From Patescibacteria group bacterium (GTDB lineage Bacteria; Patescibacteriota; Dojkabacteria; J137), in contig CAUJCN010000002.1 of assembly GCA_963169855.1 (NCBI GenBank), positions 645,608 through 709,607 of the forward strand: 64,000 bases of DNA, written 5' to 3'. Shown here piece by piece: positions 49,436 through 63,353 of the stretch; position 1 is the stretch's first letter, and each line of letters starts with the position of its first letter. A program made the translations under genes and the position numbers. Under the pieces are notes generated by a model. The model saw only the letters and a list, made by a program, of their open reading frames with translations, was not told the DNA's origin and searched no databases.

Positions 49436-49786
49436 ATGAAAAAATTCTATATCTTTTTAGCTACTTATTTAACAATCTTTACTTCTAAAGTTTCTGCTAC
49501 TGGAGGAGGCTTTGTTCAAATCCCCAACCCAACACCGATAGATTCATTAGAAGAGCTTGTTACAATGGTTGCAAGGCTTATTGTTCCTGTTTTCATTCTA
49601 ACTTTCTTGGCGATGTTACTGTACGGAGCTTTCGTTTACCTAACAGCTCAAGGTGATGATGCAAAAGTAGAAAAAGCAAAGAAAATAATAGTAACTGCAA
49701 TAATAGGATTTGTTTTAGCAGTTTTAGCTCCATCAATCGCAAACATAGTTGCTGGAATTCTTGGAGTAGAGGGTATCACTTTCTAA
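49436..49786 (+). CDS. VirB2/TrbC-like pilin paralog 1
   Basis: Signal peptide, TM1 (LIVPVFILTFLAMLLYGAFVYL), charged loop TAQGDDAKVEKAKK, TM2 (IIVTAIIGFVLAVLAPSIANIV). Confidence 0.55.
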   Translation: MKKFYIFLATYLTIFTSKVSATGGGFVQIPNPTPIDSLEELVTMVARLIVPVFILTFLAMLLYGAFVYLTAQGDDAKVEKAKKIIVTAIIGFVLAVLAPSIANIVAGILGVEGITF

Positions 49787-49788
49787 TT

Positions 49789-50418
49789 ATGAAAAATTTA
49801 CTGTTTTTAGTTATAGCCTTCATTTTTGTATTCCCTCTGTTTAGTCCAAGGGTAAATGCTCTTACTGCAGATCCAGATGTCTGTCTTCCACCACACGGAA
49901 TTCCATCTATGTGTCAGGATTCCTACACATTAGATAATAAATGTAATGTAGCAAGAATCATTAACCCAGAGGTTGATTGTTGTATTAACAAATGTACTAA
50001 CATTGATAATGGTTACGACCCAGATGCAGAATGTTCTGGTCCAGGAGATCCTGACTGCGATGTTACATCAGTACTTAATAGTCTAAATATTTTTGGAACT
50101 AAAATTCAGTACTCAAATGAAAAGATTCCATCTTTAGTTCAATTAGGTTTATCTGCATTTTTAGCAGTAGTTTCTTTTTACGCATTATTTAGAGGAATGT
50201 ATTTGTATTCAATCAAGAGAACTCAAACAACAGATGCTGCAGAAATAGGGAAGATCAACAAAGAATTTGGAAATATTATTATTGGATTTGTACTCGCATG
50301 GTCAGCAATCTTTATTGTAGAATTAGTAATGAGAATATTGGGTTTACCAACACTAACTCAAATTACATTAGAGCGAATCGACGATGGAAGTGCTTCAAAT
50401 GTAATTATTATTAAATAA
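49789..50418 (+). CDS. VirB2/TrbC-like pilin paralog 2 with Cys-rich extracellular N-domain
   Basis: Signal peptide; about 100-aa domain with 10+ Cys; TM1, loop TQTTDAAEIGKINKEFG, TM2. Confidence 0.5.
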   Translation: MKNLLFLVIAFIFVFPLFSPRVNALTADPDVCLPPHGIPSMCQDSYTLDNKCNVARIINPEVDCCINKCTNIDNGYDPDAECSGPGDPDCDVTSVLNSLNIFGTKIQYSNEKIPSLVQLGLSAFLAVVSFYALFRGMYLYSIKRTQTTDAAEIGKINKEFGNIIIGFVLAWSAIFIVELVMRILGLPTLTQITLERIDDGSASNVIIIK

Positions 50419-50419
50419 A

Positions 50420-50953
50420 ATGAAACTGAAAATATTTTTAACAACTGTAATTGGATCCCTAATGTTGAATGCAACTGTTCTTGCTCAAGGACTTGATCCA
50501 TTAGAGAATACAGGATTGGGTTTAGATGAAATCAAAATCCCGATATTTCCCGTCTTGTTCACAGATTTATCCAGATACAATACTGTTTTATCCTGGATAA
50601 CTTTTGCAGGAGGACTTCTTGTTTCTGGAATAATTATATTCTGGATTTACAGAATTATTCGATCTGGTTTAAAAGCGATGTCTGCGGAAGGAGATTCTGA
50701 GAAAATTGGTGTGGCTAGAAAAGAGTTGCAAGCTGCGCTAACTGGAATCGCATTTACATTTTTGGTTCCAATAGTTTTAAGTTTTGTTGGAATTATTTTT
50801 GGATTTGGAACAATGTTCGAATGGCCAAAGTCATTCTCAGGTTGCCAGGATACAAGTAAATATCAATATTATTTTCAGGCACTTGCTCAGGAGCCGAACG
50901 AAGAGGCAGCTGATCGAGAATGTAATCCTGATTTAGCAGATACAGATAGATAA
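50420..50953 (+). CDS. VirB2/TrbC-like pilin paralog 3
   Basis: Signal peptide; TM1 (LLVSGIIIFWIY), loop MSAEGDSEKIGVARKELQ, TM2. Confidence 0.5.
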   Translation: MKLKIFLTTVIGSLMLNATVLAQGLDPLENTGLGLDEIKIPIFPVLFTDLSRYNTVLSWITFAGGLLVSGIIIFWIYRIIRSGLKAMSAEGDSEKIGVARKELQAALTGIAFTFLVPIVLSFVGIIFGFGTMFEWPKSFSGCQDTSKYQYYFQALAQEPNEEAADRECNPDLADTDR

Positions 50954-50954
50954 T

Positions 50955-51308
50955 ATGGACTTATGTCAGTTTATTGGTTGTGATGTTGTTGGAGATGAGA
51001 ACTATCTCCTAAACTTTGGAAATATTATTCGAATGGGATTGAATATTATTTTCGGTGCCATTATTGTTTACGGAATTTTCATCATCATCAAAGCTGTTTA
51101 CAAAATTGTAGGAAGTGAAGGAGACGCGGGTAAAGTAGAGTCGGGACTAAACTCAATAAAAGGAGTGTACATAGGAATCGTTATGATTTTCGTGGGATTG
51201 ATTGGACTTGTTATTTTATTCGCATTGTTCAATATAACAGAACTTCCTGGAAATCCTGGACTACCAGGTTCAGACGAAGGTCCTGTAATCAACGACCCTT
51301 TCAACTAA
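50955..51308 (+). CDS. VirB2/TrbC-like pilin paralog 4
   Basis: TM1 (LNIIFGAIIVYGIFIIIKAV), loop GSEGDAGKVESGLNSIKG, TM2; G/P-rich tail. Confidence 0.55.
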   Translation: MDLCQFIGCDVVGDENYLLNFGNIIRMGLNIIFGAIIVYGIFIIIKAVYKIVGSEGDAGKVESGLNSIKGVYIGIVMIFVGLIGLVILFALFNITELPGNPGLPGSDEGPVINDPFN

Positions 51309-51442
51309 TATCCAACTTTAAACTTACAATCTTTATTCATATTCCTCTTGAATTTAGAAATTCGATATTAGAACTTACTTGTATCCTTGTATCTTCAGAT
51401 CTTTTCTTATAGAATGATGAAAATAGATATTAAAGATAATTT

Positions 51443-51913
51443 ATGAAAAAACTATTAGGCTCTCTCGCTGCAGTGCTTTTCTTTGTAGCTACTCCGCTAG
51501 TTAACACAGTTAGTGCACAAGATAATTTAATTTGTACAGTATTCCCATTTTTAAAGAATATTGGAGCATTCGGTATTAGCAACATCTGTGGAGGATTAAC
51601 AGATGAACAGCCAATTAACGAAGCAAGAAACTTAATTCAATTCGGATTAAATCTTGTATTTGTTGGAATTATTATCTTGGCAATTTACATAATTGTAAAA
51701 GCTGCCATTAACTACATCAGAAGTGAAGGAGATGATGAGAAGATCAAAGCTGCTAATAAATCAATTAAAGCAGTGTTCACAGGAATTATCGCTTTATTCG
51801 TTGGCATTTTAGGAATCATTTTGGTTCTTGCAATTTTCAACGCAACTGGAGCAGTAAATAATGATTTACCTGAAGGAAACTTTTTAGACCAAGATAATTT
51901 CGGTCCACAATAA
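51443..51913 (+). CDS. VirB2/TrbC-like pilin paralog 5
   Basis: Signal peptide; TM1, loop RSEGDDEKIKAANKSIKA, TM2. Confidence 0.55.
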   Translation: MKKLLGSLAAVLFFVATPLVNTVSAQDNLICTVFPFLKNIGAFGISNICGGLTDEQPINEARNLIQFGLNLVFVGIIILAIYIIVKAAINYIRSEGDDEKIKAANKSIKAVFTGIIALFVGILGIILVLAIFNATGAVNNDLPEGNFLDQDNFGPQ

Positions 51914-51915
51914 AA

Positions 51916-52653
51916 ATGAAATTTGTACGATTTCTAATCACAATAGGAATCATATTCCAAATAGTAGTGAGTCCTGTAAATGCCCAAATACAGGACTCTC
52001 CTTTTTCAGGAAATGATGCAAGTTCTTATCAATGTTTCGATAAGAACGGTCAGCCTGTAATTGACGATGGAGTTCCTCCACCATTAATTGTTAAAGATCC
52101 AAATTTAGATGTTTTCATTTGCGATACTAACGGAAACGGAGTATTAGATGCAGATGAATTAAGAGCTGTTCTTATTCCACCTAAACTTCAAGCAATCGAA
52201 GTCTGGTTTGTAAGAATTATTTATGTAGCTTGGGCTTTAGTTGGAGCATATTCATTTTACTTGTTAGTAGCCTTAGGTTACCAAGTAATGATTTCCAGAG
52301 GAGACCCAACATCTCTGCCAAAAGTTCGACAAAGAATTATCAATTTTATAATTGGATTTGCGTTAGTGTTCCTTGCAGTTCCTATCCTAGACACATTCTT
52401 CAGATTGTTAGGAATTAACAAGACTGTAAGTTGTTACGATGTTCAAATGCCAGGATTCCAATTCTTCTTTACAACACTTTGTAGCGGTAGCGATCCTTGC
52501 GCATTCACAGAAGCAGAAATTGGCGATGGAATTGTATGTCCTATTAGAAATGAATCTGTAAGGTGTAGTAGAGGAACAGAAAATTTCCTTTACGTTTGCG
52601 ATAACGATAGGCAAGTCTGGACTGGTGGAAGAACTGGTACTGGAGGAATTTAA
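51916..52653 (+). CDS. VirB2/TrbC-like pilin paralog 6 with Cys-rich N- and C-terminal extracellular regions
   Basis: Signal peptide; TM1, loop SRGDPTSLPKVRQR, TM2; C-terminal about 90 aa with 9 Cys. Confidence 0.5.
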   Translation: MKFVRFLITIGIIFQIVVSPVNAQIQDSPFSGNDASSYQCFDKNGQPVIDDGVPPPLIVKDPNLDVFICDTNGNGVLDADELRAVLIPPKLQAIEVWFVRIIYVAWALVGAYSFYLLVALGYQVMISRGDPTSLPKVRQRIINFIIGFALVFLAVPILDTFFRLLGINKTVSCYDVQMPGFQFFFTTLCSGSDPCAFTEAEIGDGIVCPIRNESVRCSRGTENFLYVCDNDRQVWTGGRTGTGGI

Positions 52654-52658
52654 GAATT

Positions 52659-54149
52659 ATGGAACTAAAAATAAAGTCTTACAAAATTGGTGAATCCACG
52701 CACATAGACGATTTTACAATCGTTAGTCCTTTTGTGGATCTTGTTCAAGAACTGAAAAATATCGAAACACTTATTCCAGGAAACGAAGTTAGGGAAATAA
52801 TTTTGACAATTGAAAACGAACCAATAATAATTAAAAAAGATGGGGAAGCTCAATCTGTAGATATTGTTTTCAAGGACAAAACTTTCGAAACGCTTGAAGA
52901 CTTATTCAAGGAAACATTTAATATTCAATTTCTACTAAACGAATGGGCTGGTAGTTTTATAGACGCATCATTAGAAGGTTTCGAGGATCAACAATCTTTA
53001 TCAGATTATATTTCAGCACTAGAACAATCAGACGATCAAATCATAAATGAAGCTCAGCTTGGTGTGGATCAATTGATCTCTCAAACTAATGAATCGGCAC
53101 CGGAAGATGCAAAAATACATTTGTTCAAAATCCAAGAACTAGGTCAAAAGATAAACGAATCGGATCAGAAACTCAGAGCATTTAACTCATATCAAAAAAA
53201 CTTAGATAAAAGAAAAATGATTAGGGATAACATTCAAAGAGAAAAAGAAAGATTAGTTCAGATTGCAACAGGATCAAAAGACTTAATTGAATCTAAATCA
53301 AAACTGCAAAACGAAATTACTGTAATGCTTGGGGGAGATAATCTCGATCAATTAAAACAAAAAACTGAACAAGTTAAGCAGAGCAGACTTTCAAAGCTTT
53401 TTGGGTATCTTACCGATACGACCTCAATGTATAAATTTGAAGAGGAAGAAAAAGAAAGAAAATTACGAATTCCTAAAGCGTTCGTAATTTTGCTTCTTAC
53501 TCAAACCCTTGCTTCTGTAGCAATGTTTTTCTTTACTGCAGATTTAATCGTGTTCCTGTACATGGTTTTATCTTATGTAGTGATAATTACTGCAGGAATT
53601 ATTTTCCAAATCTACTCTTTTGATCGATTAGGAACAATTGAGGGATTTGTAGAGGAAACAAAAACTAAGAAATTCAGTTTTAAGAACGATTCTTCTGAAG
53701 AAAAGTATTTGATTAAAAATGCATGGGTTGATGCTTTGAGTAAAGACTTGCAGGAAGTTGACAGATCGCTTTCCGTGAGATTAGGAAATACAACTTACGA
53801 TGAACTTCAGAACAAACTAACGAACTTAGAAAAAGATTCTGCGAATTTGAGTGATGAATTAAAAAAGATGGAATCTGAAAAAATGGATCAGGATGATTAC
53901 TATAAATTTAGAAGAGAGTTCGATATTTTCACAATCGAAAGAGAGAACCTGCTCGAGAATCTGAAGGGAAAGATAGACAATCAAGTGTTGGAGAATATAA
54001 AATATACAATAGCACAAATTGACGAGGCTAGGCGTGAAGCCGATAAACCAAAATTAAAGTTGCCTTTTATTATTTTTAACCTAAAGGAAAAGAATCAGTG
54101 GACAAAGGATATCGTGGCGAAAAACAATCAAATACTCTTCATAGAATAG
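52659..54149 (+). CDS. coiled-coil protein with two central TM helices (cluster component)
   Basis: ORF; heptad-rich, TMs AFVILLLTQTLASVAMFFF / LYMVLSYVVIITAGIIFQIY. Confidence 0.4.
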   Translation: MELKIKSYKIGESTHIDDFTIVSPFVDLVQELKNIETLIPGNEVREIILTIENEPIIIKKDGEAQSVDIVFKDKTFETLEDLFKETFNIQFLLNEWAGSFIDASLEGFEDQQSLSDYISALEQSDDQIINEAQLGVDQLISQTNESAPEDAKIHLFKIQELGQKINESDQKLRAFNSYQKNLDKRKMIRDNIQREKERLVQIATGSKDLIESKSKLQNEITVMLGGDNLDQLKQKTEQVKQSRLSKLFGYLTDTTSMYKFEEEEKERKLRIPKAFVILLLTQTLASVAMFFFTADLIVFLYMVLSYVVIITAGIIFQIYSFDRLGTIEGFVEETKTKKFSFKNDSSEEKYLIKNAWVDALSKDLQEVDRSLSVRLGNTTYDELQNKLTNLEKDSANLSDELKKMESEKMDQDDYYKFRREFDIFTIERENLLENLKGKIDNQVLENIKYTIAQIDEARREADKPKLKLPFIIFNLKEKNQWTKDIVAKNNQILFIE

Positions 54150-55906
54150 TTGCCCTTATTCTCGTTTTTGTATCAGCAACTTCTCCTGTACTTGCTAGAA
54201 GTTCATCTGAAATTGGACAAGACATTATCGACAAGCAAAACGAGATTGCTGCCAATCAAGAAAGACTTAAACAATCCGAAGCAAATAAAGCTTATTACGA
54301 ATCTGAATCTGCAAATCTGGCAGATGGAGTTCCTAAGCTAGAAGCTCAATTAAAAAAATTAGAAGAAGAGTTGAATGGAATAAAACTGGAAATTAGTATT
54401 TTAGAACAGCAACAAAAGTTAAAGGAACTCGAAAGAGAGCGAACACAGTTTGCTCAAAACGAAACTATTAAAGGCTCGTACATGGATTGGAAAAGTACCA
54501 GTCACGACGTAAGAATGTTTATTGACGAAGAGATAGATTTCTTAAAAATTCAGCAATATCAAAGCACAATTGCAGGAAATCAAGGTAAAAGCATTGATAA
54601 TCTAACGAATGAGTTAATCAAAATCGACGGTGAGATGACGGTGCTTGCTCAAAAGAAACAAGAGTTGGATGCGAAGCAGTTAGAAATTTCTGAACAGAAA
54701 AGACAACTCGAGGAACGATTGAATCAATTGAAATGGGGAGCTTTGGCAGAAGCAGGAAACATCACAGCATTGGGCTCTTCGATTAAACAGGCGGTGGCAG
54801 ATATTGCAGTGCTTTCAGCAGAACAAAGGGCGGCTTTAATTAGAGAGCAGGAGATTCAACAGAACAACCCAGGTTTACAAAATTCAGCGGGATGCGACGG
54901 TGCTTCGGTTCCTACAGGAAGTTTCTACTTCTGTGGAAATGGAAGAGATTTGTATCAAGGACACGGAGTTGGAATGAGTCAATACGGAGCTAAAGGAGCT
55001 GCTCAGAAAGGCGAATCAGCAGAAAGTATTTTGAATTTCTACTACTACGGAGCTACTGTTTCTACAATTGCAGAACCAGCAGAGATTTCAATCACGTATT
55101 GCCAAGGGAGTTCTTGGTTGGCAGAAACTTACAACAACTGTAACTATAATGGAAGTAATTACGGCCCAGTTATTACGGAAAGAATTGCATTAGTTGATTA
55201 CTTGGGAGGTTTAGGAGAAATGCCGTACAGTTGGCCTGAAGAAGCAAGAAAAGCTCAAATGATTGCAGCTAGGACATATGCTTTACGAAGAACAAACAAC
55301 GGAGATCCTAATTATCCAATTTGTTTGACTGCATCTTGCCAAGTCTCTAAAGTCAAATCGGGAGAAAATTATGAAAGACCTTTGGCAGTTGCAACCGCAG
55401 GAAAAGTTATTTTGCACAACGGTGGCTACATTGATGCTTTGTATTCTGCTGATAATAGTCAGAATGCTGGAACCGCAGATTGCGGAACTAGATTCCAAGA
55501 TGTTTATGGAAATCCAAACTTCGGGTGCGGTCCATATCTGGTTTCTGTAAACGATAATCATTGGGCATGGGACTCTAGAATGTACGGATGTTCTGCTAAT
55601 GGAGTAGCAACTCCTTGTGGTTTATGGCCTTGGAAAACAAGAACTTATACATATGCTCAATTCGATGAATTCTTAACTTGGGTTAGAGGAAATCTTTACT
55701 GGGAATTTGCTTCTGTAGGAAATACAACATATATTAGCTTTGAAAGAGATGCTTCTGGTAGAATCAAGAGAGCTAATATTCTAGGAACTGGAGGTTCGCT
55801 TTCAGTTGGAGGTTGGTGGTTCAAGAATGCTTGGATCGAATGGACTGCAGCTAGAGGAGAATATGATTATCTTTACAGTCAAACTTTAAATGTTGTTCAA
55901 CTATAA
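54098..55906 (+). CDS. SpoIID/LytB-domain peptidoglycan-remodelling protein with signal peptide and coiled-coil N-region
   Basis: GHGVGMSQYGAKGAAQKG and AQMIAARTYALRR (SpoIID/LytB family motifs). GTG start at 54098 overlaps the upstream gene; a signal-peptide-like segment IVALILVFVSATSPVLA follows. Confidence 0.75.
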   Translation: MDKGYRGEKQSNTLHRIVALILVFVSATSPVLARSSSEIGQDIIDKQNEIAANQERLKQSEANKAYYESESANLADGVPKLEAQLKKLEEELNGIKLEISILEQQQKLKELERERTQFAQNETIKGSYMDWKSTSHDVRMFIDEEIDFLKIQQYQSTIAGNQGKSIDNLTNELIKIDGEMTVLAQKKQELDAKQLEISEQKRQLEERLNQLKWGALAEAGNITALGSSIKQAVADIAVLSAEQRAALIREQEIQQNNPGLQNSAGCDGASVPTGSFYFCGNGRDLYQGHGVGMSQYGAKGAAQKGESAESILNFYYYGATVSTIAEPAEISITYCQGSSWLAETYNNCNYNGSNYGPVITERIALVDYLGGLGEMPYSWPEEARKAQMIAARTYALRRTNNGDPNYPICLTASCQVSKVKSGENYERPLAVATAGKVILHNGGYIDALYSADNSQNAGTADCGTRFQDVYGNPNFGCGPYLVSVNDNHWAWDSRMYGCSANGVATPCGLWPWKTRTYTYAQFDEFLTWVRGNLYWEFASVGNTTYISFERDASGRIKRANILGTGGSLSVGGWWFKNAWIEWTAARGEYDYLYSQTLNVVQL

Positions 55907-56545
55907 ATGAATCCTGCTTATAACCCAGATGCAAAAAAAATGATGATGATCCAGAAAATGGATCAAATTGTACCTAAATCTAACTTAGGATTTTTTGGGT
56001 CTGTTCAATATAGACCAAAAATGAGTTTTGAAGGTCAAAATAGAAACGAGAAAGTTTACATCATGGCAAGAAGACACTGGTTAACTAATATTGGATGGAT
56101 TTTCAACAACTTCATTTATCTTTTGATTCCCGTTATAGCGGCTTTGATATTAAATATTTTTGATACAAGGCTTCCAGAATTAAACAGACAAATCTATGCA
56201 GTGATTGTTCTAGGATACTACTCATTTGTTTTTACGAACATGTTTAAGAACTTTATTGATTGGTATTACGATATTTACTTTGTAACAAACGAAAAAGTTA
56301 TGGACGTTATTTTCAAGCCTTTTGCTTCTTATCAAATCGAAGAAATTCCTTTGGTCAGCATAGAAAGTGTGAGAGAAAAAACTCCTGGAGTATTGGCATC
56401 ATTATTCAACTATGGGAATATTACAATAACTACCGAAGCAAACGACAGAACTATGATATTCCCATACATTTCTCGACCTACAAAGGTTAGAGATATTATT
56501 TCAGACTTAGCTTTTGTGGCTAGATCATTCAACAATGGAAATTGA
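55907..56545 (+). CDS. membrane protein with bacterial PH (bPH_2/YdbT-like) domain
   Basis: Two TMs followed by YDIYFVTNEKVMDVIFKPFASYQIEEIPLVSIESV...GNITITTEA pattern. Confidence 0.5.
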   Translation: MNPAYNPDAKKMMMIQKMDQIVPKSNLGFFGSVQYRPKMSFEGQNRNEKVYIMARRHWLTNIGWIFNNFIYLLIPVIAALILNIFDTRLPELNRQIYAVIVLGYYSFVFTNMFKNFIDWYYDIYFVTNEKVMDVIFKPFASYQIEEIPLVSIESVREKTPGVLASLFNYGNITITTEANDRTMIFPYISRPTKVRDIISDLAFVARSFNNGN

Positions 56546-56783: not shown

Positions 56784-59627
56784 ATGGCAATTAAAGCAGA
56801 CTTTATAACCGGTAAACAAACTTTTGGAAATTGGGCGAGAGTATTCGCCTTTGTTCCTGAGGATCAATCAGGAAAAGAAATGTTTGTAGTGGCTAAGATC
56901 TACGTGGATAGTGATGAATTCAATCTTGATAATGCAGGAAAACTTCTTTTAGACGAACTTCAAGGAATCTATTTCACCGATACAAAGGAATACGCGGACC
57001 AAGTTAGTAGACTTGAAAACGCACTTTGGAAAATGAAAGGAAAGATGGAGTATATTCTTTCTAAAGAAGAATCTCTTGTACAAAAAGGTTTAGATATAGA
57101 ATTAGCAGTTGTAGTTTATGATGAAAGTTTTGCTTATGCAGCGATTGTAGGAGAGAGTAGAATTAAGATTTTCAGAGAAGGAAAACTAATTGATATTACA
57201 GAAGCACTTTCAGACGCTGCAGATTCTGGATTCTTCAAAACAGGAAGTCTAGAATTAGATGAAAACGACAGATTATTCTTGATCACATCTCAAGCATCAA
57301 AAGAGTTTGCAGATAAAGAATTGACTTATGGAGCAAGTGTATTAGCTTTCGACAAATTAAAAGCAGCTTACCCGGAATCTTCAGAAGGTACAGCAATGAT
57401 GATGGTTTACAAGGATTCAGCAATTCCTCTAGAAGTAGAAGAAGAGTCTGAAGTTGCTGCCGATCTTTCAGAGGAGGAAATTGAATCTAATCCTAGCCAA
57501 CTTGCTGGAAACAAACCTAGCGCATCTACAGCCCCAAATTTTGGTAGAGAAACAATGTCTGCAGTAACAGAAGTTTCTAGAATGACTATGTTCGGAGAAA
57601 AACTAAAAATGTTCTCTTCAATTGCAAAAGAAAATTTAGTTAAAGCAGGAAATTTCACAAAAGGAAAATTGATTGTATTAAAAGACAAAGTTATAGAATT
57701 AAACAACAAGAGACAAGGTAGAGAAGTTGAACAATTTGAAGAAGAATCTGAAGGAGAATACGAAACTATTCCTACTCAGGCTCCTGGGCAAAGAAGAGTC
57801 GCAGCAACACTTCCTGTTGTTCCTGCAGCAACTTCAAGATTAGATGATGAAGAAGGAGAAAACTTAGATTATTCTGATCCTGCAGTTAATGATTCTCAAA
57901 CAACTGAAGTTCCTCAAGAAGAGAACTCAGAGCTAGTTTCTGAACAACCTGTAGAACAGGCAGAAGTAAATCCATACGAAGAAATGGAATCTCATAATTT
58001 AAATGATGAATCGATTCACGAAGAATACGGGGAAGAACTACAGGCAGTAGATACACAAAGCAGATTAAATGATGAAGAGTACGAAGAGGATTACGAAGAT
58101 GAGGGATCACAGGAATTTGAAGATGAATCAGCACCAATGCCAGCAGTTCAACAAAGAATGATGCAGAGAAATATTTCTCAAGAACCGCAAGGTCTAAAAG
58201 ATAATGTATTAGGAAGAGTTTCTGGAGTTAAAGAAAAACTAACTGGATTCTATCAGAATAAATTAGGAAAGAATGGGGGAAGTACTATCTCAACAATATT
58301 CCAAAACATTCTTTCAATTCTACGAGAACTTATTACGAATGGAATTGAATTATTCAAAAAAGAAATTTTGGGAGTTGGAGATAACAGAAGAGACAGATTA
58401 ACTAGAGCAAAAAGAAGACGAAGAAACAGAATCATTTTGATTATCATAGTGATTGTTCTGTTTATCGTAATCACAAATTCGATTAGAAGTGCTCAAGAAG
58501 CTAGGGCTCAACAAGAACAATTAGATACAGCGAAATCAAAACTTACAGATTTCCAAAGCACTTATAGAACTTTGGACGCGAAAGTAAGTACAGCTAAAGC
58601 TGGTGGAGATGTTGGAAAGCAAAACTTGATCGCAGATCTAGACAGATTAAATGCAGAAATCAATGTTCAAAAACGAGATGGATTATTAGTCGATGATTTA
58701 AATACAGTTCAAAAGAATATCGAAACTACAAAAGACAAAGTATTAGATGTTGTTTCAATCACAACACCACAAGTTCTAGTTGATGTAGGAAAGAGTTATC
58801 CTGATGCGAATTTAGCAGATATTGAATACTCAAATGGAGGAGTCTACATTGCAGACCAAGGAAGAAACTTGATTTACAGAGTAGCAACAGCTTCGTTAAA
58901 TGGAGTTCCTCAGAGTTTTGTTTCTGGATTAGCTCAGCCATATGCTTTGGTTAGAAATGTAGATGGAGATATTATTTTCTACGATAACGATACAAGCTCA
59001 GCAATGGGAGTATTCGAATACGACAAAGAAAATAGCTTGAGTAGATACCCAGGATTATCAGCAAGTAGTATTGGAAAAGTTACTGAATCTTCATTGTTCA
59101 GTGGAAATAATTCACTTTACGAAGTAAGAGGATCAACAAGTCAGATTTTCAAAAGAGATCAAACAGGAGGAAGTTACGTTAGTGGAGGAGCAACTCAATC
59201 GGGAGAATTTAACACAAACTGGAGAGTAGACCCAGACTTTACGAACGCTGTTGATATCGCAACACCATACGAGATTTACGTGTTAATCAAAGGACAAGGA
59301 ATTAAGAGATACTTTGCAAGAGAAGCAAATACTTTGACAACAAACTTGTTATCAAATATTTCTCAGGCAGATATCAGTGCTGTTCAAAATGGATCATCAC
59401 TTGATGTAGTGGATTCATTTGTAGCTGTGGGAGATCCTGCAAACAAGAGAGTATTCTTGTTCAGAATTGATGATACAAACGAGAAAGGCTTAACTTTGAT
59501 TAAGCAATATGTTTACAGAGGAAATGAGAATGTATTTACAGATTTAGATGAGATTGTAATTGTGCCAAACGAAAGTGCATTGTATGTTCTTGATAATTTG
59601 AAGGTGATTAAATTACCTTTACAATAA
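56784..59627 (+). CDS. large (947 aa) multi-domain protein: N-terminal PP2C-like (probably inactive) domain, acidic linker, TM, coiled coil, C-terminal beta-propeller-like region
   Basis: LAVVVYDESFAYAAIVGESRIKIFREGKLIDITEA...DENDRLFLITSQ resembles a PP2C/SpoIIE fold with DSR changed to ESR; E/D-rich 220-330; TM IILIIIVIVLFIVITNSI. Confidence 0.4.
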   Translation: MAIKADFITGKQTFGNWARVFAFVPEDQSGKEMFVVAKIYVDSDEFNLDNAGKLLLDELQGIYFTDTKEYADQVSRLENALWKMKGKMEYILSKEESLVQKGLDIELAVVVYDESFAYAAIVGESRIKIFREGKLIDITEALSDAADSGFFKTGSLELDENDRLFLITSQASKEFADKELTYGASVLAFDKLKAAYPESSEGTAMMMVYKDSAIPLEVEEESEVAADLSEEEIESNPSQLAGNKPSASTAPNFGRETMSAVTEVSRMTMFGEKLKMFSSIAKENLVKAGNFTKGKLIVLKDKVIELNNKRQGREVEQFEEESEGEYETIPTQAPGQRRVAATLPVVPAATSRLDDEEGENLDYSDPAVNDSQTTEVPQEENSELVSEQPVEQAEVNPYEEMESHNLNDESIHEEYGEELQAVDTQSRLNDEEYEEDYEDEGSQEFEDESAPMPAVQQRMMQRNISQEPQGLKDNVLGRVSGVKEKLTGFYQNKLGKNGGSTISTIFQNILSILRELITNGIELFKKEILGVGDNRRDRLTRAKRRRRNRIILIIIVIVLFIVITNSIRSAQEARAQQEQLDTAKSKLTDFQSTYRTLDAKVSTAKAGGDVGKQNLIADLDRLNAEINVQKRDGLLVDDLNTVQKNIETTKDKVLDVVSITTPQVLVDVGKSYPDANLADIEYSNGGVYIADQGRNLIYRVATASLNGVPQSFVSGLAQPYALVRNVDGDIIFYDNDTSSAMGVFEYDKENSLSRYPGLSASSIGKVTESSLFSGNNSLYEVRGSTSQIFKRDQTGGSYVSGGATQSGEFNTNWRVDPDFTNAVDIATPYEIYVLIKGQGIKRYFAREANTLTTNLLSNISQADISAVQNGSSLDVVDSFVAVGDPANKRVFLFRIDDTNEKGLTLIKQYVYRGNENVFTDLDEIVIVPNESALYVLDNLKVIKLPLQ

Positions 59628-59752: not shown

Positions 59753-60208
59753 TTGAAGACTTTAAGCACAAACAAAAAAGCATATTTTGATTACGAAATT
59801 CTGGATAAGTACGAAGCTGGAATAGAACTGTACGGCTGGGAAGTAAAGTCAATTAAAAGCACAAACTTCAATATTGCTTCCGCATATGTAACTCCAAGAG
59901 ACTACGAGATGCTTCTTGTGGGAATGCGAGTAGGACTATTAAAAGAGTCGTTCACTCAAGATAAGAATTTAGAAACAAGAAATCGAAAACTGCTTTTAAA
60001 TAAAAATGAAATCTTTCAAATAGTTTCTAAAACGAAAACCAAAGGACTTACGATCGTTCCACTGGAAGTATATTTAAATGACAGAGGCTACATTAAAGTT
60101 TTAATTGGAACAGCAAGAGGAAAGAAGAAATACGAAAAGAAAGACAAGGTTAAGAATAGAGACCTAGTAAAAGATTTGGAACTAGATAGGAAGCAGTACA
60201 ATTTCTAA
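59753..60208 (+). CDS. smpB: SsrA-binding protein SmpB
   Basis: KKAYFDYEILDKYEAGIELYGWEVKSIK, LLLNKNEI, basic C-terminal tail; TTG start. Confidence 0.85.
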   Translation: MKTLSTNKKAYFDYEILDKYEAGIELYGWEVKSIKSTNFNIASAYVTPRDYEMLLVGMRVGLLKESFTQDKNLETRNRKLLLNKNEIFQIVSKTKTKGLTIVPLEVYLNDRGYIKVLIGTARGKKKYEKKDKVKNRDLVKDLELDRKQYNF

Positions 60209-60232
60209 ATAGCTATATGATAAACTCAAGAT

Positions 60233-60793
60233 ATGGATGATTCAAAAACAATACAAAGTCAAAGTATAAAGCAGTTAATTGCTTACCTAGAGAAATTCGG
60301 ATTTAAATATTTAGGTCCAGGAGAGAATGGAGATGTTCTTTTTACTGCTCCAAACGGACAAGCAGTAACTGGCGAAGTTGCCTACAGATTTGTGAAAACA
60401 CAGTTAGCCCAACCTGCGAGCCAAGGAAGTGGAAGCCCAGAAACACTAAACATGCCTCAGAACATTCCTCAGATCGATCAAACTTTTGAATCAAATATTG
60501 AAATTGAAAAAGGTCCAGAAGAAGGAAAAATTGAAAGAGCTTCTGAACAAAAAGATGCAAATTCGCAATCATTGAGTGATCTGAAAGTAAAGAATAGTTC
60601 TCCAAGAATGAAGATTGCTAAAACAGCAATACCAATGCCTTTCGGGGATGGCTTTACACCAAAGACGTTCAAACCAGATGATACCAAGAGTATTCAGGAT
60701 TTTATTTCAAAGAAAGCTAGTGCAAATCATAGCGATCCAGAAGTGTGGCTGAAAGTTCTTTGGGAAAAATTCTTAAAAGAATTAGCTGCATAA
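60233..60793 (+). CDS. hypothetical protein (186 aa)
   Basis: ORF only. Confidence 0.35.
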   Translation: MDDSKTIQSQSIKQLIAYLEKFGFKYLGPGENGDVLFTAPNGQAVTGEVAYRFVKTQLAQPASQGSGSPETLNMPQNIPQIDQTFESNIEIEKGPEEGKIERASEQKDANSQSLSDLKVKNSSPRMKIAKTAIPMPFGDGFTPKTFKPDDTKSIQDFISKKASANHSDPEVWLKVLWEKFLKELAA

Positions 60794-60893
60794 TTCATAA
60801 TCTTCCGTTTTCTCACTTTATTATTAAAACTTGCATTGTTTTGCTGTAAAATAATAAAACATACAGACGAAAGTCCGTAAATTTTTGTTGTAT

Positions 60894-63353
60894 ATGCAAT
60901 CAGATATAATAGGAACTATTCTCATAGCGGCACTAATATTAGTACTAGTGATAGTGCTGATTTTCAGTATCTATTCATGGCTTCTTGATGAACTAAAAGA
61001 AAGAGTATTGATGGATAAATCTTTGAATCTTGTTTTCTACGAAATCAAATTAACCAAAAACAACGATGTAGAAATTAAGGCTATGGAACAATTGTTCTCT
61101 GGTTTAACAGGTTTTGCAGAAGATCTGAAAGGAGTAAAGCAATTCATTGGAGCTAGAACTTTTGTCAGTTTCGAACTAGTCGCTTATTATCAAAGTATTA
61201 GATTCTATGTTGTTTGCCCAAAAAAGATTTCCAGTGTTGTAGATAGATTGATTAACGGAACTTACCCAAGTGCAGAAATTCTAAAAGTTAAAGAATACAA
61301 TTTATTCCCAGATAGTGGTCATGTTTCTTACGGAATTCTAGAGCACGATAAAGATTGGAAAATCCCAATTCAAACTTATGAAGAATTACCTGTTGATAGT
61401 TTAGCTACGCTTACAGATGTAATGAGTAAACTAGGTCCAGGTGAATCCGCATGTTTCCAATTAGTTATCGCACCAGCTGGAGGAGGGTGGATTAATAAAT
61501 CTAAGGAGTACGCAAAAAAGATTAGAGAAGATGCACAACCAAAAGAAGCTAAGGAGGGAGAAAAAGCTCCTAAGCCACCAAAGCAGAAAGTTCCAGACGA
61601 AACTCTTCAGTTGATCGAAAGAAAAGCAGAAAAGAACGGATTCTTTTCAGATTTAAGAATTGTAGTTTGTTCTCCAGACAAATTTTCTAGTGAAAACCAC
61701 ATGACTAATATCGTTAGTACATTCGACCAATTCTCTAAGATTGGAGGAAACAAACTAAAAAAAGTAAAGATGAAAAAAGCTGCAGATAGAGCTAAGTACA
61801 AGAATATTGCTAGAGATGTAATCTACAGAATTCCAAGAAGCAAAGCAGTTTTAAATGCAGCAGAACTAGCTACTCTTTATCACTTGCCTAACAAGAATAT
61901 TCAAGCTCCGCATATCAAATGGATGATTTCTAAGAAACTTCCAGCACCAGACTTTACAGTTAATACATGGGAAAAAGATTACATGTATATTGGAAAGAAT
62001 ACTTTCCGAGGTTCAGAAAAAGAAATCTTCTTAAAACCAGATGCAAGACTAAGACACTTCTATATCATCGGACAAACTGGATCTGGTAAATCTGGATTTA
62101 TGTTGAGTATGATGGTTCGAGACATCAAGATGGGACATGGGTGTGCGTATATCGATCCACACGGTTCAGATGCAGATAAAGTTCTTCAACAGATTCCACC
62201 AGAGAGAATAGAGGACGTGATTATTTTCGACCCTTCAGATATAGAAAGACCTTTAGGATTAAACATGTTGGAATTTAAAACTCCTGCTCAAAAGACTTTG
62301 GTTACAAACGAAATGTTGAACATCTTCGATAGTTTATACAACTTGAAAGTAACTGGAGGACCTATGTTCGAACAGTACTTCAGATATGGAATTATGCTTT
62401 TAACAGAAGATATCGAATCAGGATCAACTTTATTAGAAATTCCTAAGCTCTTCGCAGACGAAGGTTATAGAAACTACAAACTTTCGAAATGTAAAGATCA
62501 GGAAGTTATCGATTTCTGGAGAAAGCAAGCGGAAGCAGCAGGAGGAGAAGCATCGCTAAAAAACATCGTTCCTTATGTTGTTTCTAAACTTGCACCATTC
62601 TTAACAAACGCTTATCTTAGACCAATTGTTGCTCAGCAGAACTCTACAATCGATTTTAGAGATATTATGGATAACAAAAAAATCCTGATCGCAAAGTTAT
62701 CTAAAGGTAGAATCGGAGAATTAAACGCAAACTTATTAGGAATGATCTTAATCGGTAAATTGTTAGTAGGCGCGTTAGAAAGAGACGATATTCCAGAAGC
62801 AGACAGAATTCCTTTCTACTTATACATCGACGAGTTCCAAAACTTCTTAACAGATGGAATTCAAATCATTCTTTCTGAAGCTAGAAAATACAAGTTATCT
62901 TTGACTATTGCTCACCAGTTCTTAGGACAGTTAACAAGACAAGGAGGAGACACAAAGATTAAAGATGCTGTATTCGGTAACGTTGGTAACAAAGCAATCT
63001 TCAGAGTTGGAGAAGAAGATTCACCATTCTTAAGAAAAGTATTAGACGGAGATTTAGAAGAGTCTGATTTACAACAGGCGGAAAACCTTACAGCATTTAC
63101 AAAAATCCAGGTTGATGGAAAACCTACCCCAGCATTCACGCTTAGAGCGGTTTACGGCGAGTCTCCATACGATATGATGACAGAACCTAACCCACAGCTT
63201 GCGGACTTAATTAGACAGATCTCAAGGCTAAAATATGGCAAAGATATTAGCCTTATAGAGAATGAAGTTAAGTTAAGAGGAAGCTTTATTAAAGAGAAGA
63301 CCGAGGAAGCTAAGAAACCAGGCGGAATGTTTGGTGGATTCCCTGGGTTTTAA
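60894..63353 (+). CDS. VirB4/TrbE-like type IV secretion ATPase (P-loop, FtsK/HerA superfamily) with N-terminal TM
   Basis: Walker A IIGQTGSGKSGF at about residue 397 of 820, followed by AYIDPHGS; Walker B FYLYIDEFQNF; AHQFLGQL. Size and motif positions fit VirB4 rather than VirD4. Confidence 0.65.
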   Translation: MQSDIIGTILIAALILVLVIVLIFSIYSWLLDELKERVLMDKSLNLVFYEIKLTKNNDVEIKAMEQLFSGLTGFAEDLKGVKQFIGARTFVSFELVAYYQSIRFYVVCPKKISSVVDRLINGTYPSAEILKVKEYNLFPDSGHVSYGILEHDKDWKIPIQTYEELPVDSLATLTDVMSKLGPGESACFQLVIAPAGGGWINKSKEYAKKIREDAQPKEAKEGEKAPKPPKQKVPDETLQLIERKAEKNGFFSDLRIVVCSPDKFSSENHMTNIVSTFDQFSKIGGNKLKKVKMKKAADRAKYKNIARDVIYRIPRSKAVLNAAELATLYHLPNKNIQAPHIKWMISKKLPAPDFTVNTWEKDYMYIGKNTFRGSEKEIFLKPDARLRHFYIIGQTGSGKSGFMLSMMVRDIKMGHGCAYIDPHGSDADKVLQQIPPERIEDVIIFDPSDIERPLGLNMLEFKTPAQKTLVTNEMLNIFDSLYNLKVTGGPMFEQYFRYGIMLLTEDIESGSTLLEIPKLFADEGYRNYKLSKCKDQEVIDFWRKQAEAAGGEASLKNIVPYVVSKLAPFLTNAYLRPIVAQQNSTIDFRDIMDNKKILIAKLSKGRIGELNANLLGMILIGKLLVGALERDDIPEADRIPFYLYIDEFQNFLTDGIQIILSEARKYKLSLTIAHQFLGQLTRQGGDTKIKDAVFGNVGNKAIFRVGEEDSPFLRKVLDGDLEESDLQQAENLTAFTKIQVDGKPTPAFTLRAVYGESPYDMMTEPNPQLADLIRQISRLKYGKDISLIENEVKLRGSFIKEKTEEAKKPGGMFGGFPGF

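What the first reader, a model, noticed from the sequence alone, without database searches (positions are those of the whole stretch)
49436..63353. Non-canonical T4SS-like or pilus gene cluster with six tandem, divergent VirB2/TrbC-like pilin paralogs
What the sequence shows:
- Six consecutive plus-strand genes (49436-52653) are separated by 0-3 nt or overlap. Each encodes a leader followed by helix, short charged loop, helix.
- The loop carries a recurring motif across the six: AQGDDAKVEKAKK, TDAAEIGKINKE, SAEGDSEKIGVARK, GSEGDAGKVESG, RSEGDDEKIKAANK and SRGDPTSLPKVRQR. This is the VirB2/TrbC pilin architecture.
- Two of the six (49789, 51916) have acquired Cys-rich extracellular extensions of 9-10 Cys each.
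- The same operon-like run continues with a 2-TM coiled-coil protein and a secreted SpoIID/LytB-domain cell-wall remodeller (GHGVGMSQYGAKGAA), which would be a functional analogue of VirB1.
- It then carries a bPH_2 membrane protein, a small membrane protein, and a 947-aa protein with a PP2C-like N-domain, TM, coiled coil and beta-propeller-like C-terminus.
- After smpB comes an 820-aa VirB4-like ATPase (GQTGSGKS, DPHG, IDEFQNF, AHQ).
- No VirB6, VirD4, relaxase or oriT is recognisable in the window.

Inference: the set looks like a pilus or contact apparatus rather than a conjugative DNA-transfer system. Six diversified pilins would fit variable surface filaments, perhaps for host or partner attachment in a small-genome symbiont.
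Basis: partly seen in the sequence, partly recalled or inferred. Interest (0 to 1): 0.85.

Follow-up and report, generated by a model that had tools for sequence, protein, structure and literature searches.

The report
Conserved six-pilin array of a Dojkabacteria genome

Summary
The observation largely holds. Six co-oriented genes (49436-52653) encode homologous helix-loop-helix membrane proteins. Gene 1 passes the Pfam T4SS_pilin (PF18895) threshold; the other five are linked to it by direct sequence matches.

The window is a housekeeping chromosome stretch of a Candidatus Dojkabacteria (Patescibacteria/CPR) bacterium. Tandem arrays of 2-11 divergent VirB2-like pilins are already published for this phylum, including an essential six-pilin array in Southlakia. 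This is therefore a new member of a known kind.

- The 819-aa ATPase is T4CP/VirD4-type by sequence, not VirB4.
- No VirB4, VirB3, VirB6 or relaxase was found in the window, or in the roughly 10 kb beyond the ATPase in related genomes.
- One intergenic gap is 134 nt.
- The Cys-rich pilins have 8 Cys each, not 9-10.
- Pilin 4 has no leader.

Added here:
- The six paralogs keep the same order in 11 Dojkabacteria genomes.
- Each evolves about as slowly as SmpB or ClpB and carries its own conserved Cys signature. This argues for six non-redundant subunits rather than variable surface antigens.
- The downstream genes (coiled-coil protein, permuted SpoIID, bPH, DUF5657, PP2C-fold/propeller protein) are syntenic within the class but unproven as pilus parts.

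The parts
49436..49786 (+). pil1: VirB2-type pilin, 116 aa. Leader, TM1, AQGDDAK loop, TM2. No Cys.
   Evidence: PF18895 43.7 bits, above the gathering score of 26.6. TrbC E 0.033. NCBIfam Mbov_0395 pilin-like conjugal transfer protein 32.8 bits against a cut-off of 40. Orthologues show a median 52% identity and have 0 Cys in 13/13 sequences.
49789..50418 (+). pil2: pilin paralog, 209 aa, with an N-terminal ectodomain carrying 8 Cys before TM1.
   Evidence: phmmer to pil1 gives E 1e-5. PF18895 13 bits. All 8 Cys lie at residues 32-90. Six Cys columns are conserved in orthologues.
50420..50953 (+). pil3: pilin paralog, 177 aa, with a C-terminal tail carrying 2 Cys.
   Evidence: PF18895 19.7 bits. 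phmmer to pil5 gives 2.9e-10 and to pil1 2.8e-5. Two Cys columns are conserved.
50955..51308 (+). pil4: pilin paralog, 117 aa, leaderless, with CxxxxC at the N-terminus.
   Evidence: phmmer to pil5 gives 2.2e-20. The stop-to-stop frame leaves no room for a leader. It is leaderless in the closest relatives too.
51443..51913 (+). pil5: pilin paralog, 156 aa. Leader, 2 Cys in the N-terminal segment, hairpin. Preceded by a 134-nt gap.
   Evidence: phmmer hits to pil4, pil3 and pil1. Gap measured. Duplicated in L021.
51916..52653 (+). pil6: pilin paralog, 245 aa. Has an N-terminal segment (2 Cys, EF-hand-like loop) and a C-terminal segment with 6 Cys.
   Evidence: PF18895 19.6 bits; EF-hand hits are sub-threshold. 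Eight Cys columns are conserved.
52659..54149 (+). cc496: 496-aa protein with coiled coils and two central TM helices. Fast-evolving and always follows pil6.
   Evidence: No Pfam or NCBIfam hit. TM at about residues 273-321. Present after pil6 in all 11 loci; BLASTP identity, measurable in 10 of them, has a median of 23%.
54098..55906 (+). Membrane-anchored coiled-coil SpoIID/LytB-domain protein (602 aa), a candidate peptidoglycan-opening enzyme. The domain is circularly permuted.
   Evidence: TIGR02669 122 bits; PF08486 4e-11. Permutation relative to 4rwr shown. Absent from this position in L016, L018 and L019.
55907..56545 (+). bPH212: membrane protein with a bacterial PH-like domain.
   Evidence: PF14470 bPH_3 19.8 bits, below the cut-off of 23. 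TM at residues 62-89. Syntenic in all loci.
56514..56753 (+). DUF5657 small 2-TM protein. The start codon is uncertain; an ATG lies at 56535.
   Evidence: PF18901 33 bits against a cut-off of 25. Syntenic in all loci.
56784..59627 (+). big947: PP2C-fold N-domain (1-215), acidic disordered linker, one TM (545-571), coiled coil, and a C-terminal repeat domain with NHL-like motifs.
   Evidence: Foldseek top 50 hits are all PP2C, best E 7e-10, on a model with mean pLDDT 49. A profile search against PDB sequences gives only E 0.14 to tPphA. No Pfam hit. Family recovered only from genomes with the Dojkabacteria gene order, several of them labelled otherwise.
59753..60208 (+). smpB: a housekeeping gene lying between the cluster and the ATPase. 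Not part of the system.
   Evidence: PF01668 149 bits.
60233..60793 (+). p186: soluble 186-aa protein of unknown function, always directly upstream of the ATPase in Dojkabacteria.
   Evidence: No family hit. Syntenic. Not detectably related to the small gene upstream of the Uhrbacteria ATPase.
60894..63353 (+). T4CP/VirD4-type ATPase, 819 aa. One N-terminal TM, a DUF8128 domain, then a P-loop ATPase with a helical insertion. Walker A is GQTGSGKS; Walker B region is YLYIDEFQNF.
   Evidence: PF12696 TraG-D_C 25.6 bits against a cut-off of 22. Homologues carry PF26449 plus PF10412, PF02534 and PF12696, with no VirB4-type family (AAA_10 or CagE) among those listed. PDB profile hits are led by the coupling proteins DotL and TrwB; no VirB4 entry matched. 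hhalign E 2.7e-44 to the relaxase-adjacent plasmid ATPase, against probability 2.8% to that plasmid's VirB4.

Best explanation
The six genes are the Dojkabacteria version of the VirB2-like pilin array of the Patescibacteria type IV secretion system.

Shown or directly read from the sequence:
- Each product is a small helical-hairpin membrane protein.
- Five of the six have an N-terminal hydrophobic leader.
- All 22 cysteines lie outside the TM1-loop-TM2 core. This fits an N-out/C-out hairpin with a short, positively charged cytoplasmic S-x-G-D-x-x-K loop.

Inferred by analogy with VirB2, TraA and TrbC:
- The hairpins are pulled out of the membrane and stacked into a pilus-like filament or channel lining by a VirB4-powered, Gram-positive-type (MPF-FATA-like) machine.
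- That machine is encoded elsewhere on this roughly 0.8-Mb chromosome.
- The filament serves contact with, or exchange with, a host cell rather than conjugation.

Because the six paralogs are kept one-to-one and in order across the class, each with its own Cys signature, they most likely play six different structural roles. One reading is a Cys-free major subunit (pil1) plus specialised subunits whose disulfide-bonded ectodomains (pil2, pil6) decorate the surface or tip. They are unlikely to be interchangeable variants.

The next five genes (cc496, permuted SpoIID, bPH, DUF5657, PP2C-fold/propeller protein) are probably co-transcribed envelope proteins. SpoIID could open the wall, and the PP2C-fold transmembrane protein could sense or regulate. 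This part is inference from packing and synteny only.

The 819-aa ATPase is a phylum-wide T4CP-type ATPase whose nearness to the array is a class-specific accident of gene order or a loose association.
For: Pilin identity and paralogy
-.

Topology
- Cys positions and hydrophobic segments.
- A conserved Cys signature for each paralog.

Organism and context
- Dojkabacteria names on the closest homologues.
- Housekeeping neighbours.
- The exact proteins occur on an 817,811-bp NCBI contig.

Conservation
- The order pil1 to pil6 is the same in 11 of 11 loci.
- Orthologue identity has medians of 37-52%, against SmpB 46% and ClpB 48%. Paralogs share 17-27%.

ATPase type
-.
- No pilins lie near the ATPase in other CPR classes.

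Literature
- 441 VirB2 arrays of 2-11 genes at about 25% identity, and pilins near virB4 in only 1135 of 1948 assemblies (PMC12102498).
- Two Dojkabacteria genomes are scored VirB4-positive.
- The pilins are essential and lie within the T4SS cluster of Southlakia (PMC10633639).
- Southlakia has six divergent VirB2-like pilins (PMC12857230).
Against: - No VirB4, VirB3, VirB6 or VirB8 homologue was found by Pfam scans of the window's ORFs of at least 110 aa, nor in the gene lists for the roughly 10 kb downstream of the ATPase in related genomes. The partner machine is therefore assumed, not seen.
- Genes 2-6 are individually below the Pfam threshold.
- In the papers read here, a Patescibacteria T4SS pilus is still described as a possibility rather than an observed structure (PMC12857230).
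- The role of the five downstream genes rests on synteny within one class whose whole gene order is conserved, housekeeping genes included (GroEL, ClpB, SmpB, FtsH, PolA).
- SpoIID is missing from this position in 3 of 11 loci.
Confidence: 0.68

Rival explanations
1. Self-contained, VirB4-independent pilus module. The six pilins, cc496, bPH, DUF5657, the PP2C-fold/propeller protein and the T4CP-type ATPase together form a machine peculiar to Dojkabacteria. The DUF8128 ATPase takes over the pilin-extraction role of VirB4.
For: - The whole block from the pilins to the ATPase is co-oriented and syntenic in every Dojkabacteria locus with full coverage.
- All of its products except SmpB and p186 have TM segments.
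- No VirB4 lies within reach.
Against: - smpB interrupts the block.
- The same ATPase family occurs across CPR classes without pilins nearby.
- Its closest plasmid relatives occupy the coupling-protein position beside a relaxase, on plasmids that also carry a separate VirB4.
- The Foldseek TM-score to TrwK is only 0.30.
- Dojkabacteria genomes in the published survey are scored VirB4-positive.
- Gene order in this class is conserved for housekeeping genes as well, so synteny is weak evidence.
Confidence: 0.1
2. The six proteins are membrane-resident hairpin subunits and do not form a pilus. They would be part of, or a lining for, a translocation channel or another membrane complex. This parallels the pilin-like conjugal transfer proteins of Mycoplasma ICEs; from my own knowledge, not checked here, no pilus has been reported for those.
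For: - The best NCBIfam match of pil1, pil2, pil4 and pil5 is the Mbov_0395 family of pilin-like conjugal transfer proteins of monoderm ICEs.
- Gram-positive T4SSs generally lack pili (PMC12102498).
- In the papers read here, a Patescibacteria T4SS pilus is described only as a possibility (PMC12857230).
- A fixed set of six conserved paralogs fits a defined-stoichiometry complex.
Against: - The PF18895 and TrbC similarity and the hairpin topology are those of polymerising pilins.
- Large disulfide-rich ectodomains on pil2 and pil6 make more sense on an exposed surface.
Confidence: 0.17
3. The region downstream of the pilins is a cell-wall or division module unrelated to the pilins. It would comprise SpoIID, a PstP-like PP2C transmembrane protein, bPH and the coiled-coil membrane protein. 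Its adjacency to the pilins would reflect only frozen gene order.
For: - SpoIID enzymes remodel peptidoglycan.
- PP2C, TM and an extracellular domain together form the architecture of PstP, which appears among the fold hits.
- The window is rich in division and wall genes: FtsZ, FtsA, amidase, YceG, sortase.
- SpoIID is dispensable at this position in 3 loci.
- Housekeeping synteny extends on both sides.
Against: - Spacing from pil6 to cc496 is 5 nt, and the following genes overlap or abut.
- cc496 follows pil6 in all 11 loci.
- Wall hydrolases encoded next to the T4SS are essential in Southlakia, as cited in PMC12102498.
Confidence: 0.3

Closest known systems
VirB2-like pilin arrays of the Patescibacteria T4SS (Wang et al. 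2023, PMC10633639; Quinonero-Coronel et al. 2025, PMC12102498; reviewed in PMC12857230)
   Same: - Tandem, co-oriented PF18895/VirB2-like genes on a CPR chromosome.
- About 25% identity between copies.
- No relaxase.
- Six copies, as in Southlakia epibionticum.
   Different: - In Southlakia the array lies inside the T4SS cluster with virB4. Here no virB4 was found anywhere in the 64-kb window.
- Here the array is followed by a class-specific block: cc496, permuted SpoIID, bPH, DUF5657 and a PP2C-fold protein.
- The published suggestion is versatility towards host strains. Here the copies are individually conserved across a class.
VirB2/TrbC/TraA conjugative pilins of Gram-negative T4SSs (Pfam PF04956)
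   Same: Leader, two hydrophobic helices and a short basic loop. TrbC gives a weak hit to pil1 (E 0.033) and hits 3 of 75 array members at E<=0.01.
   Different: - Below the family threshold.
- Monoderm host.
- Several copies carry Cys-rich ectodomains.
- No VirB5, VirB7, VirB9 or VirB10 context.
Mbov_0395/MMCAP2_0565 pilin-like conjugal transfer proteins of Mycoplasma ICEs (NCBIfam NF045849)
   Same: Best NCBIfam match for pil1 (32.8 bits), pil2, pil4 and pil5. Monoderm setting.
   Different: All scores are below the cut-off of 40. From my own knowledge, not checked here, the ICE proteins are single-copy. No ICE context was seen here.
Type IV coupling proteins (TrwB, VirD4, TraD, DotL) and the relaxase-adjacent DUF87 ATPases of Bacillales plasmids
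   Same: - N-terminal membrane anchor.
- P-loop domain with a helical insertion.
- TraG-D_C above threshold.
- Full-length profile match to the plasmid ATPase (E 2.7e-44).
   Different: - Chromosomal and phylum-wide.
- No relaxase or oriT partner.
- A long DUF8128 domain between the anchor and the ATPase.
- The T4CP homologue of Southlakia is reported as not essential (PMC12102498).
Tandem VirB2 paralogs of Bartonella and Anaplasma T4SSs
   Same: Several divergent virB2 copies in a row, as cited in PMC12102498.
   Different: Those are interpreted as antigenic or host-range variants. Here the orthologue conservation argues against rapid diversification.

Membership tests
Pfam PF18895 T4SS_pilin (VirB2-like pilin) | HMM score at or above the gathering threshold (26.6 bits) | tested here: met
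   pil1 scores 43.7 bits. pil2-6 score 10.6-19.7 bits on their own, but they are linked to pil1 by phmmer and jackhmmer. 41 of 75 array members match at E<=0.01.
Pfam PF18895 T4SS_pilin (VirB2-like pilin) | Leader, then two hydrophobic helices joined by a short polar loop | tested here: met
   Hydropathy and alignment support this. pil4 is the exception and lacks the leader.
Pfam PF18895 T4SS_pilin (VirB2-like pilin) | Polymerises into a pilus on a T4SS | not testable with these tools
   Needs imaging or biochemistry.
Patescibacteria VirB2 array (PMC12102498) | 2-11 pilin genes in tandem, or separated by one gene, on a Patescibacteria genome, with low identity between copies | tested here: met
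   Six genes at 17-27% identity. Dojkabacteria origin.
T4SS gene cluster (virB4-centred, within 20 CDS) | A VirB4 ATPase (AAA_10 or CagE_TrbE_VirB) near the pilins | tested here: not met
   No such hit in any window ORF of at least 110 aa, nor in the roughly 10 kb beyond the ATPase in relatives.
T4SS gene cluster (virB4-centred, within 20 CDS) | VirB3/PrgI, VirB6/PrgH, VirB8/PrgL or TrsD homologues | tested here: not met
   No Pfam or NCBIfam hit among the cluster proteins. The CONJScan profiles used in the literature were not available here.
VirB4 (for the 819-aa ATPase) | Sequence membership: VirB4_CagE, AAA_10 or CagE_TrbE_VirB | tested here: not met
   TIGR00929 scores 12.1 bits at the P-loop only, against a cut-off of 643. 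hhalign to a plasmid AAA_10 VirB4 gives probability 2.8%. No VirB4-type Pfam family (AAA_10 or CagE) appears among the precomputed annotations of the 120 listed homologues.
VirB4 (for the 819-aa ATPase) | Fold of the ATPase domain and two-domain layout | tested here: inconclusive
T4CP (VirD4/TraD/TrwB) | Sequence membership in T4CP families | tested here: met
   TraG-D_C scores 25.6 bits against a cut-off of 22. Homologues carry TrwB_AAD_bind and T4SS-DNA_transf. PDB profile hits are led by the coupling proteins DotL and TrwB; no VirB4 entry matched. The best NCBIfam hits are TraD and VirD4-like, all far below their cut-offs.
T4CP (VirD4/TraD/TrwB) | N-terminal membrane anchor plus Walker A and Walker B | tested here: met
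   TM at residues 1-35. GQTGSGKS and DEFQ lie in invariant columns of the family alignment.
T4CP (VirD4/TraD/TrwB) | Works with a relaxase or relaxosome | tested here: not met
   No relaxase family hit in the window. The plasmid relatives do sit next to a Replic_Relax gene.
SpoIID/LytB | Domain HMM above its cut-off | tested here: met
   TIGR02669 122 bits against 83.3; PF08486 43.7 bits against 23. The order of the segments is permuted relative to 4rwr.
PP2C phosphatase (N-domain of the 947-aa protein) | PP2C fold | tested here: met
   The top 50 Foldseek hits are all PP2C, best E 7e-10, TM 0.6 relative to the target. Caveat: mean model pLDDT is 49, and the N-domain ranges 45-82.
PP2C phosphatase (N-domain of the 947-aa protein) | Sequence membership and metal-binding Asp motifs | tested here: inconclusive
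   No Pfam hit at E<0.1. The profile search against PDB sequences gives only E 0.14 to tPphA. The catalytic residues were not mapped.

The most novel reading that the evidence does not exclude
In Dojkabacteria the six pilins would form a fixed-composition heteromeric filament or channel. It would be built by a class-specific envelope module (cc496, bPH, DUF5657, PP2C-fold/propeller sensor, permuted SpoIID) together with the DUF8128 T4CP-type ATPase, without any VirB4. That would be a new kind of pilus machine derived from T4SS parts.
Probability: 0.08. Interest if true: 0.7.

Novelty: new member of a known kind. Interest (0 to 1): 0.3.

Why it matters
Patescibacteria make up a large share of uncultured bacteria, and their T4SS with its pilin array is essential for epibiotic growth in the one species tested (PMC10633639). 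What the six pilins do is still open.

This locus adds a comparative point. In another class the array is detached from virB4, yet all six paralogs are kept in order and under ordinary purifying selection. That favours six distinct structural roles over antigenic or host-range variation. It also gives testable candidates: a Cys-free pil1 as major subunit, and Cys-rich pil2 and pil6 as exposed subunits.

It does not reveal a new kind of system.

Tried and rejected
- Promoter and terminator scan of 49000-64000: counts equal the shuffled expectation, so it says nothing about operon structure.
- Looking for the partner VirB4:
  - The exact-protein look-up returned only 11-19 kb Logan contigs. The 817,811-bp NCBI contig is not indexed for positions.
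  - The stored supplement of PMC12102498 is cut before the Dojkabacteria rows of Table S3.
  - I had no CPR VirB4 seed sequence that the capped searches would accept.
- Homology search with the 947-aa protein returned only 6 proteins, probably because its acidic low-complexity linker swamped the word filter. The structure model was therefore shallow (pLDDT 49), and the C-terminal propeller claim could not be tested. Only NHL-like motifs were read by eye.
- Homology search with pil1 found only close relatives (18 proteins), so it gave no outgroup context.
- BLASTP of big947, bPH212 and p186 against the Uhrbacteria neighbours of the ATPase found no similarity. The idea of a phylum-wide ATPase-plus-partners module was dropped.
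- Structure comparison could not separate VirB4 from T4CP. The call rests on sequence profiles.
- Literature search for DUF5657 and DUF8128 found nothing.
- Considered and rejected a mobile element or ICE. The context is housekeeping, GC content is even, and the gene order is conserved across the class.

Full report
WHAT IS THERE

The ORF map shows six consecutive + strand genes at 49436-52653, of 116, 209, 177, 117, 156 and 245 aa. They are followed on the same strand by:
- a 496-aa protein;
- a 602-aa protein;
- a 212-aa protein;
- a 79-aa protein;
- a 947-aa protein;
- smpB;
- a 186-aa protein;
- a large ATPase.

The spacers between the six genes are 2, 1, 1, 134 and 2 nt, with 5 nt to the next gene. 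The packing is tight, but there is one clear gap before the fifth gene.

ARE THE SIX A FAMILY, AND ARE THEY PILINS?

- They align over two hydrophobic helices joined by an S-x-G-D-x-x-K loop, with 17-27% identity to the first.
- In phmmer searches against all 283 six-frame ORFs of at least 50 aa in the window, every one of the six hits only other members of the six. The strongest link is pil4 to pil5 at 2e-20. Hydrophobic composition alone therefore does not explain the similarity.
- Pfam places gene 1 in PF18895 'Type IV secretion system pilin' at 43.7 bits, against a gathering score of 26.6. Genes 2-6 give the same family as a sub-threshold hit of 10.6-19.7 bits; it is the top hit for four of the five, and for gene 5 it ranks eighth. 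TrbC/VirB2 gives E 0.033 for gene 1.
- The best NCBIfam match for four of the six is the Mbov_0395 family of pilin-like conjugal transfer proteins of Mycoplasma ICEs, below its cut-off.
- Across 75 array members from this and related genomes, 41 match PF18895 at E<=0.01. The next family, TrbC, has 3.

Topology is self-consistent:
- Five of the six have an N-terminal hydrophobic leader.
- All 22 cysteines lie before TM1 or after TM2.
- Cysteines come in even numbers per segment: 8; 2; 2; 2; 2+6.

Both Cys-rich proteins have 8 Cys, not 9-10. Gene 4 has no leader, and its stop-to-stop frame leaves no room for one.

WHOSE GENOME?

The window carries the following genes:
- Cell division and wall: FtsZ, FtsA, sortase, amidase, YceG.
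- Partition: ParAB.
- Translation and RNA: RNase Y, IleRS, L25, tmRNA.
- Chaperones and proteases: YidC, a Lon-like AAA protein, GroEL, a ClpB-like ATPase.
- Metabolism and other: sigma-70, signal peptidase, pentose-phosphate enzymes.

GC content is an even 34-41%. The closest relatives of the ATPase and of the 947-aa protein are named Candidatus Dojkabacteria. The exact proteins occur on an 817,811-bp NCBI contig. This is a chromosomal region of an ultrasmall CPR/Patescibacteria bacterium, not a mobile element.

WHAT IS ALREADY KNOWN

- Quinonero-Coronel et al. 2025 (PMC12102498) searched 3,035 Patescibacteria genomes. They found VirB2-like pilins in 1,948 virB4-positive assemblies, with the pilin near virB4 in only 1,135 of them.
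- The same study reports 441 arrays of 2-11 pilin genes at an average of 25% identity, especially in Microgenomatia and Saccharimonadia. It also reports 5,713 T4CP homologues, mostly far from virB4, and almost no relaxases.
- Two Dojkabacteria genomes in their Table S1 are scored VirB4-positive.
- Wang et al. [quoted passage not shown]
- A 2025 review (PMC12857230) describes that array as six structurally conserved, sequence-divergent VirB2-like pilins.

The central observation of the finding is thus a further instance of a published feature.

THE ATPASE

The product starting at ATG 60894 (819 aa) is on record exactly. The evidence on its type is as follows.

- Pfam: TraG-D_C scores above threshold (25.6 against 22). 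DUF87, TrwB_AAD_bind and FtsK are weaker.
- NCBIfam: the best hits are TraD and VirD4-like models. VirB4_CagE scores 12 bits at the P-loop only.
- Homologues: there are 2,439 at E<=1e-5. The 120 listed carry PF26449 (DUF8128) plus TrwB_AAD_bind, T4SS-DNA_transf, TraG-D_C or DUF87. No VirB4-type family (AAA_10 or CagE) appears among them. NCBI names them 'TraM recognition domain-containing' or 'type IV secretion system DNA-binding domain-containing' protein.
- PDB sequences: a 30-sequence family profile is matched best by the coupling proteins DotL and TrwB. The weaker hits are a DNA helicase, a DnaA-related protein and Lon, and no VirB4 entry matched.
- Plasmid relatives: tblastn finds relatives covering 85% of the protein on Bacillales plasmids. 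On two such plasmids the relative lies immediately upstream of a Replic_Relax relaxase gene. A separate AAA_10 ATPase lies with TcpE and conjugal-transfer genes further on.
- Profile comparison: the family profile aligns with the relaxase-adjacent protein over 638 columns (E 2.7e-44, N-terminal domain included). It aligns with the AAA_10 VirB4 of the same plasmid only at the P-loop, at probability 2.8%.

I therefore call it T4CP-type by sequence and VirB4/VirD4-superfamily by fold. In Komeilibacteria and Uhrbacteria the same ATPase sits among DnaK/DnaJ or CysS genes, with no pilin in the 10 kb on either side. Its Uhrbacteria neighbours are unrelated to the genes here.

SYNTENY AND CONSERVATION

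Neighbourhoods of ATPase homologues at 78, 63, 57, 54 and 52% identity show the same order:

pilins, a protein of roughly 330-555 aa in the cc496 position, SpoIID, bPH, (DUF5657), a protein of about 800 aa, SmpB, a protein of about 186 aa (split into short ORFs in one frameshifted assembly), ATPase, Xer, FtsH.

A scan of one genome per GTDB species with the 947-aa family returned 13 loci. The named ones are Dojkabacteria, and some carry an automatic 'Saccharibacteria' label. Jackhmmer with the window proteins gave these results for the 11 loci with upstream coverage:
- All have ClpB-like, then pil1 to pil6 in the same order, then cc496.
- Each of pil1, pil2, pil3 and pil6 best matches its positional counterpart.
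- Positions 4 and 5 are a close pair that is not always resolved.
- There is an extra pil1-like copy in one locus and extra pil5 copies in another.
- SpoIID is absent from its place in three loci.

Orthologue identity to the window protein has these medians:

| Protein | Median identity (%) |
|---|---|
| pil1 | 52 |
| pil2 | 37 |
| pil3 | 38 |
| pil4 | 46 |
| pil5 | 49 |
| pil6 | 44 |
| SmpB | 46 |
| ClpB | 48 |
| ATPase | 63 |
| cc496 | 23 |

Each paralog keeps its own Cys signature. pil1 has none in 13 of 13 sequences. pil3, pil4 and pil5 have two. pil2 has six conserved Cys columns and pil6 has eight. The paralogs are therefore old, individually maintained, and not fast-evolving.

THE OTHER GENES

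- cc496 has no family hit and two central TM helices.
- The 602-aa protein is a membrane-anchored coiled-coil SpoIID/LytB protein. Its GHGVGMSQYGA segment (residues 288-324) aligns to the C-terminal end of SpoIID 4rwr. Residues 361-461 align to its N-terminal part. This is a circular permutation.
- The 212-aa protein has a sub-threshold bPH_3 hit. The 79-aa protein is DUF5657.
- The 947-aa protein has a conserved N-domain, an acidic variable linker, one TM and a conserved C-domain.
- Its model is poor overall, with pLDDT 49. Even so, the N-domain retrieves only PP2C phosphatases in Foldseek: tPphA at 7e-10, then PstP, PppA and SpoIIE. A sequence profile gives only a marginal, collinear tPphA match at E 0.14.
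Catalytic competence and the propeller claim remain untested.

HOW IT MOST LIKELY WORKS

Shown:
- Six homologous hairpin proteins of the T4SS-pilin family, with extracytoplasmic Cys-bearing ends.
- Conservation as a set.
- A T4CP-type ATPase 8 kb downstream.
- No VirB4, VirB3, VirB6 or relaxase in reach.

Inferred from VirB2/TraA biology and the Patescibacteria literature:
- The pilins are inserted in the membrane and then assembled by a VirB4-driven Gram-positive-type T4SS encoded elsewhere.
- The resulting structure serves host contact or exchange.

My own inference from the conservation pattern: the six have distinct roles, rather than providing surface variation.

The roles of cc496, SpoIID, bPH, DUF5657 and big947 as accessory wall-opening or regulatory parts are plausible. 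They rest only on spacing and on synteny within a class whose gene order is generally frozen.

VERDICT

The finding is real and correctly recognised as VirB2-like pilins. It is not non-canonical for its phylum. It is a new member of a known kind, the ATPase was mis-assigned, and the diversification story is not supported.

Noticed in passing
window 46633-49302 (+): The double-AAA+ ClpB/ClpC-like ATPase directly upstream of pil1 has two hydrophobic N-terminal segments (about residues 79-132), which suggests a membrane-anchored Clp unfoldase. It precedes pil1 in all 11 Dojkabacteria loci.
   Followed up: partly
window 54098-55906 (+): The SpoIID/LytB domain is circularly permuted relative to SpoIID 4rwr. 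Query residues 288-324 match chain residues 284-320, and query 361-461 match chain 64-181.
   Followed up: partly
L016, L018, L019 (about 8900-8960 in each): In three Dojkabacteria genomes the SpoIID gene is missing between cc496 and bPH, while everything else in the block is kept.
   Followed up: no
window 63552-63626 (+): A tRNA-Ile with anticodon TAT, found by both ARAGORN and Rfam. This is an unusual way for a bacterium to read AUA.
   Followed up: no
window 22663-27414 (+): A 1583-aa ORF with two stretches matching Peptidase_S74, the intramolecular chaperone of endosialidase and tail-fibre proteins. It is possibly a large surface fibre or adhesin.
   Followed up: no
window 4402-5205 (+): A single 267-aa protein fuses a HEPN domain to a nucleotidyltransferase domain. 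These are usually two genes of a toxin-antitoxin-like pair.
   Followed up: no
window 51916-52653 (+), residues 69-86 of pil6: An EF-hand-like DxNGNGxLDxxE loop lies in the N-terminal ectodomain of pil6. The Pfam EF-hand hits are just below threshold. It is a possible Ca-binding site on an exposed pilin.
   Followed up: no
L008 9528-12517 and L027 9560-12532: In Uhrbacteria and Komeilibacteria the DUF8128 ATPase is also immediately preceded by a small gene of 143-157 aa and followed by one of 178-188 aa. The Uhrbacteria upstream gene shows no BLASTP similarity to p186.
   Followed up: partly
L012, L013, L016, L019, L023: Several TPA assemblies titled 'uncultured Candidatus Saccharibacteria' carry the full Dojkabacteria gene order and the closest orthologues, so the labels look wrong. 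The 'Doudnabacteria'-labelled L026 also shows this gene order.
   Followed up: no
L021 / L006 (AP024679.1): In this complete genome pil6, smpB and p186 are split into several short ORFs and pil5 is present in extra copies. This points to frameshift errors in the assembly or to real decay.
   Followed up: no
window 35299-35973 (+) and 36050-36503 (+): A ComF-like protein (double zinc ribbon plus phosphoribosyltransferase, both below threshold) lies next to the tmRNA gene. smpB lies 23 kb away, inside the region under study.
   Followed up: no
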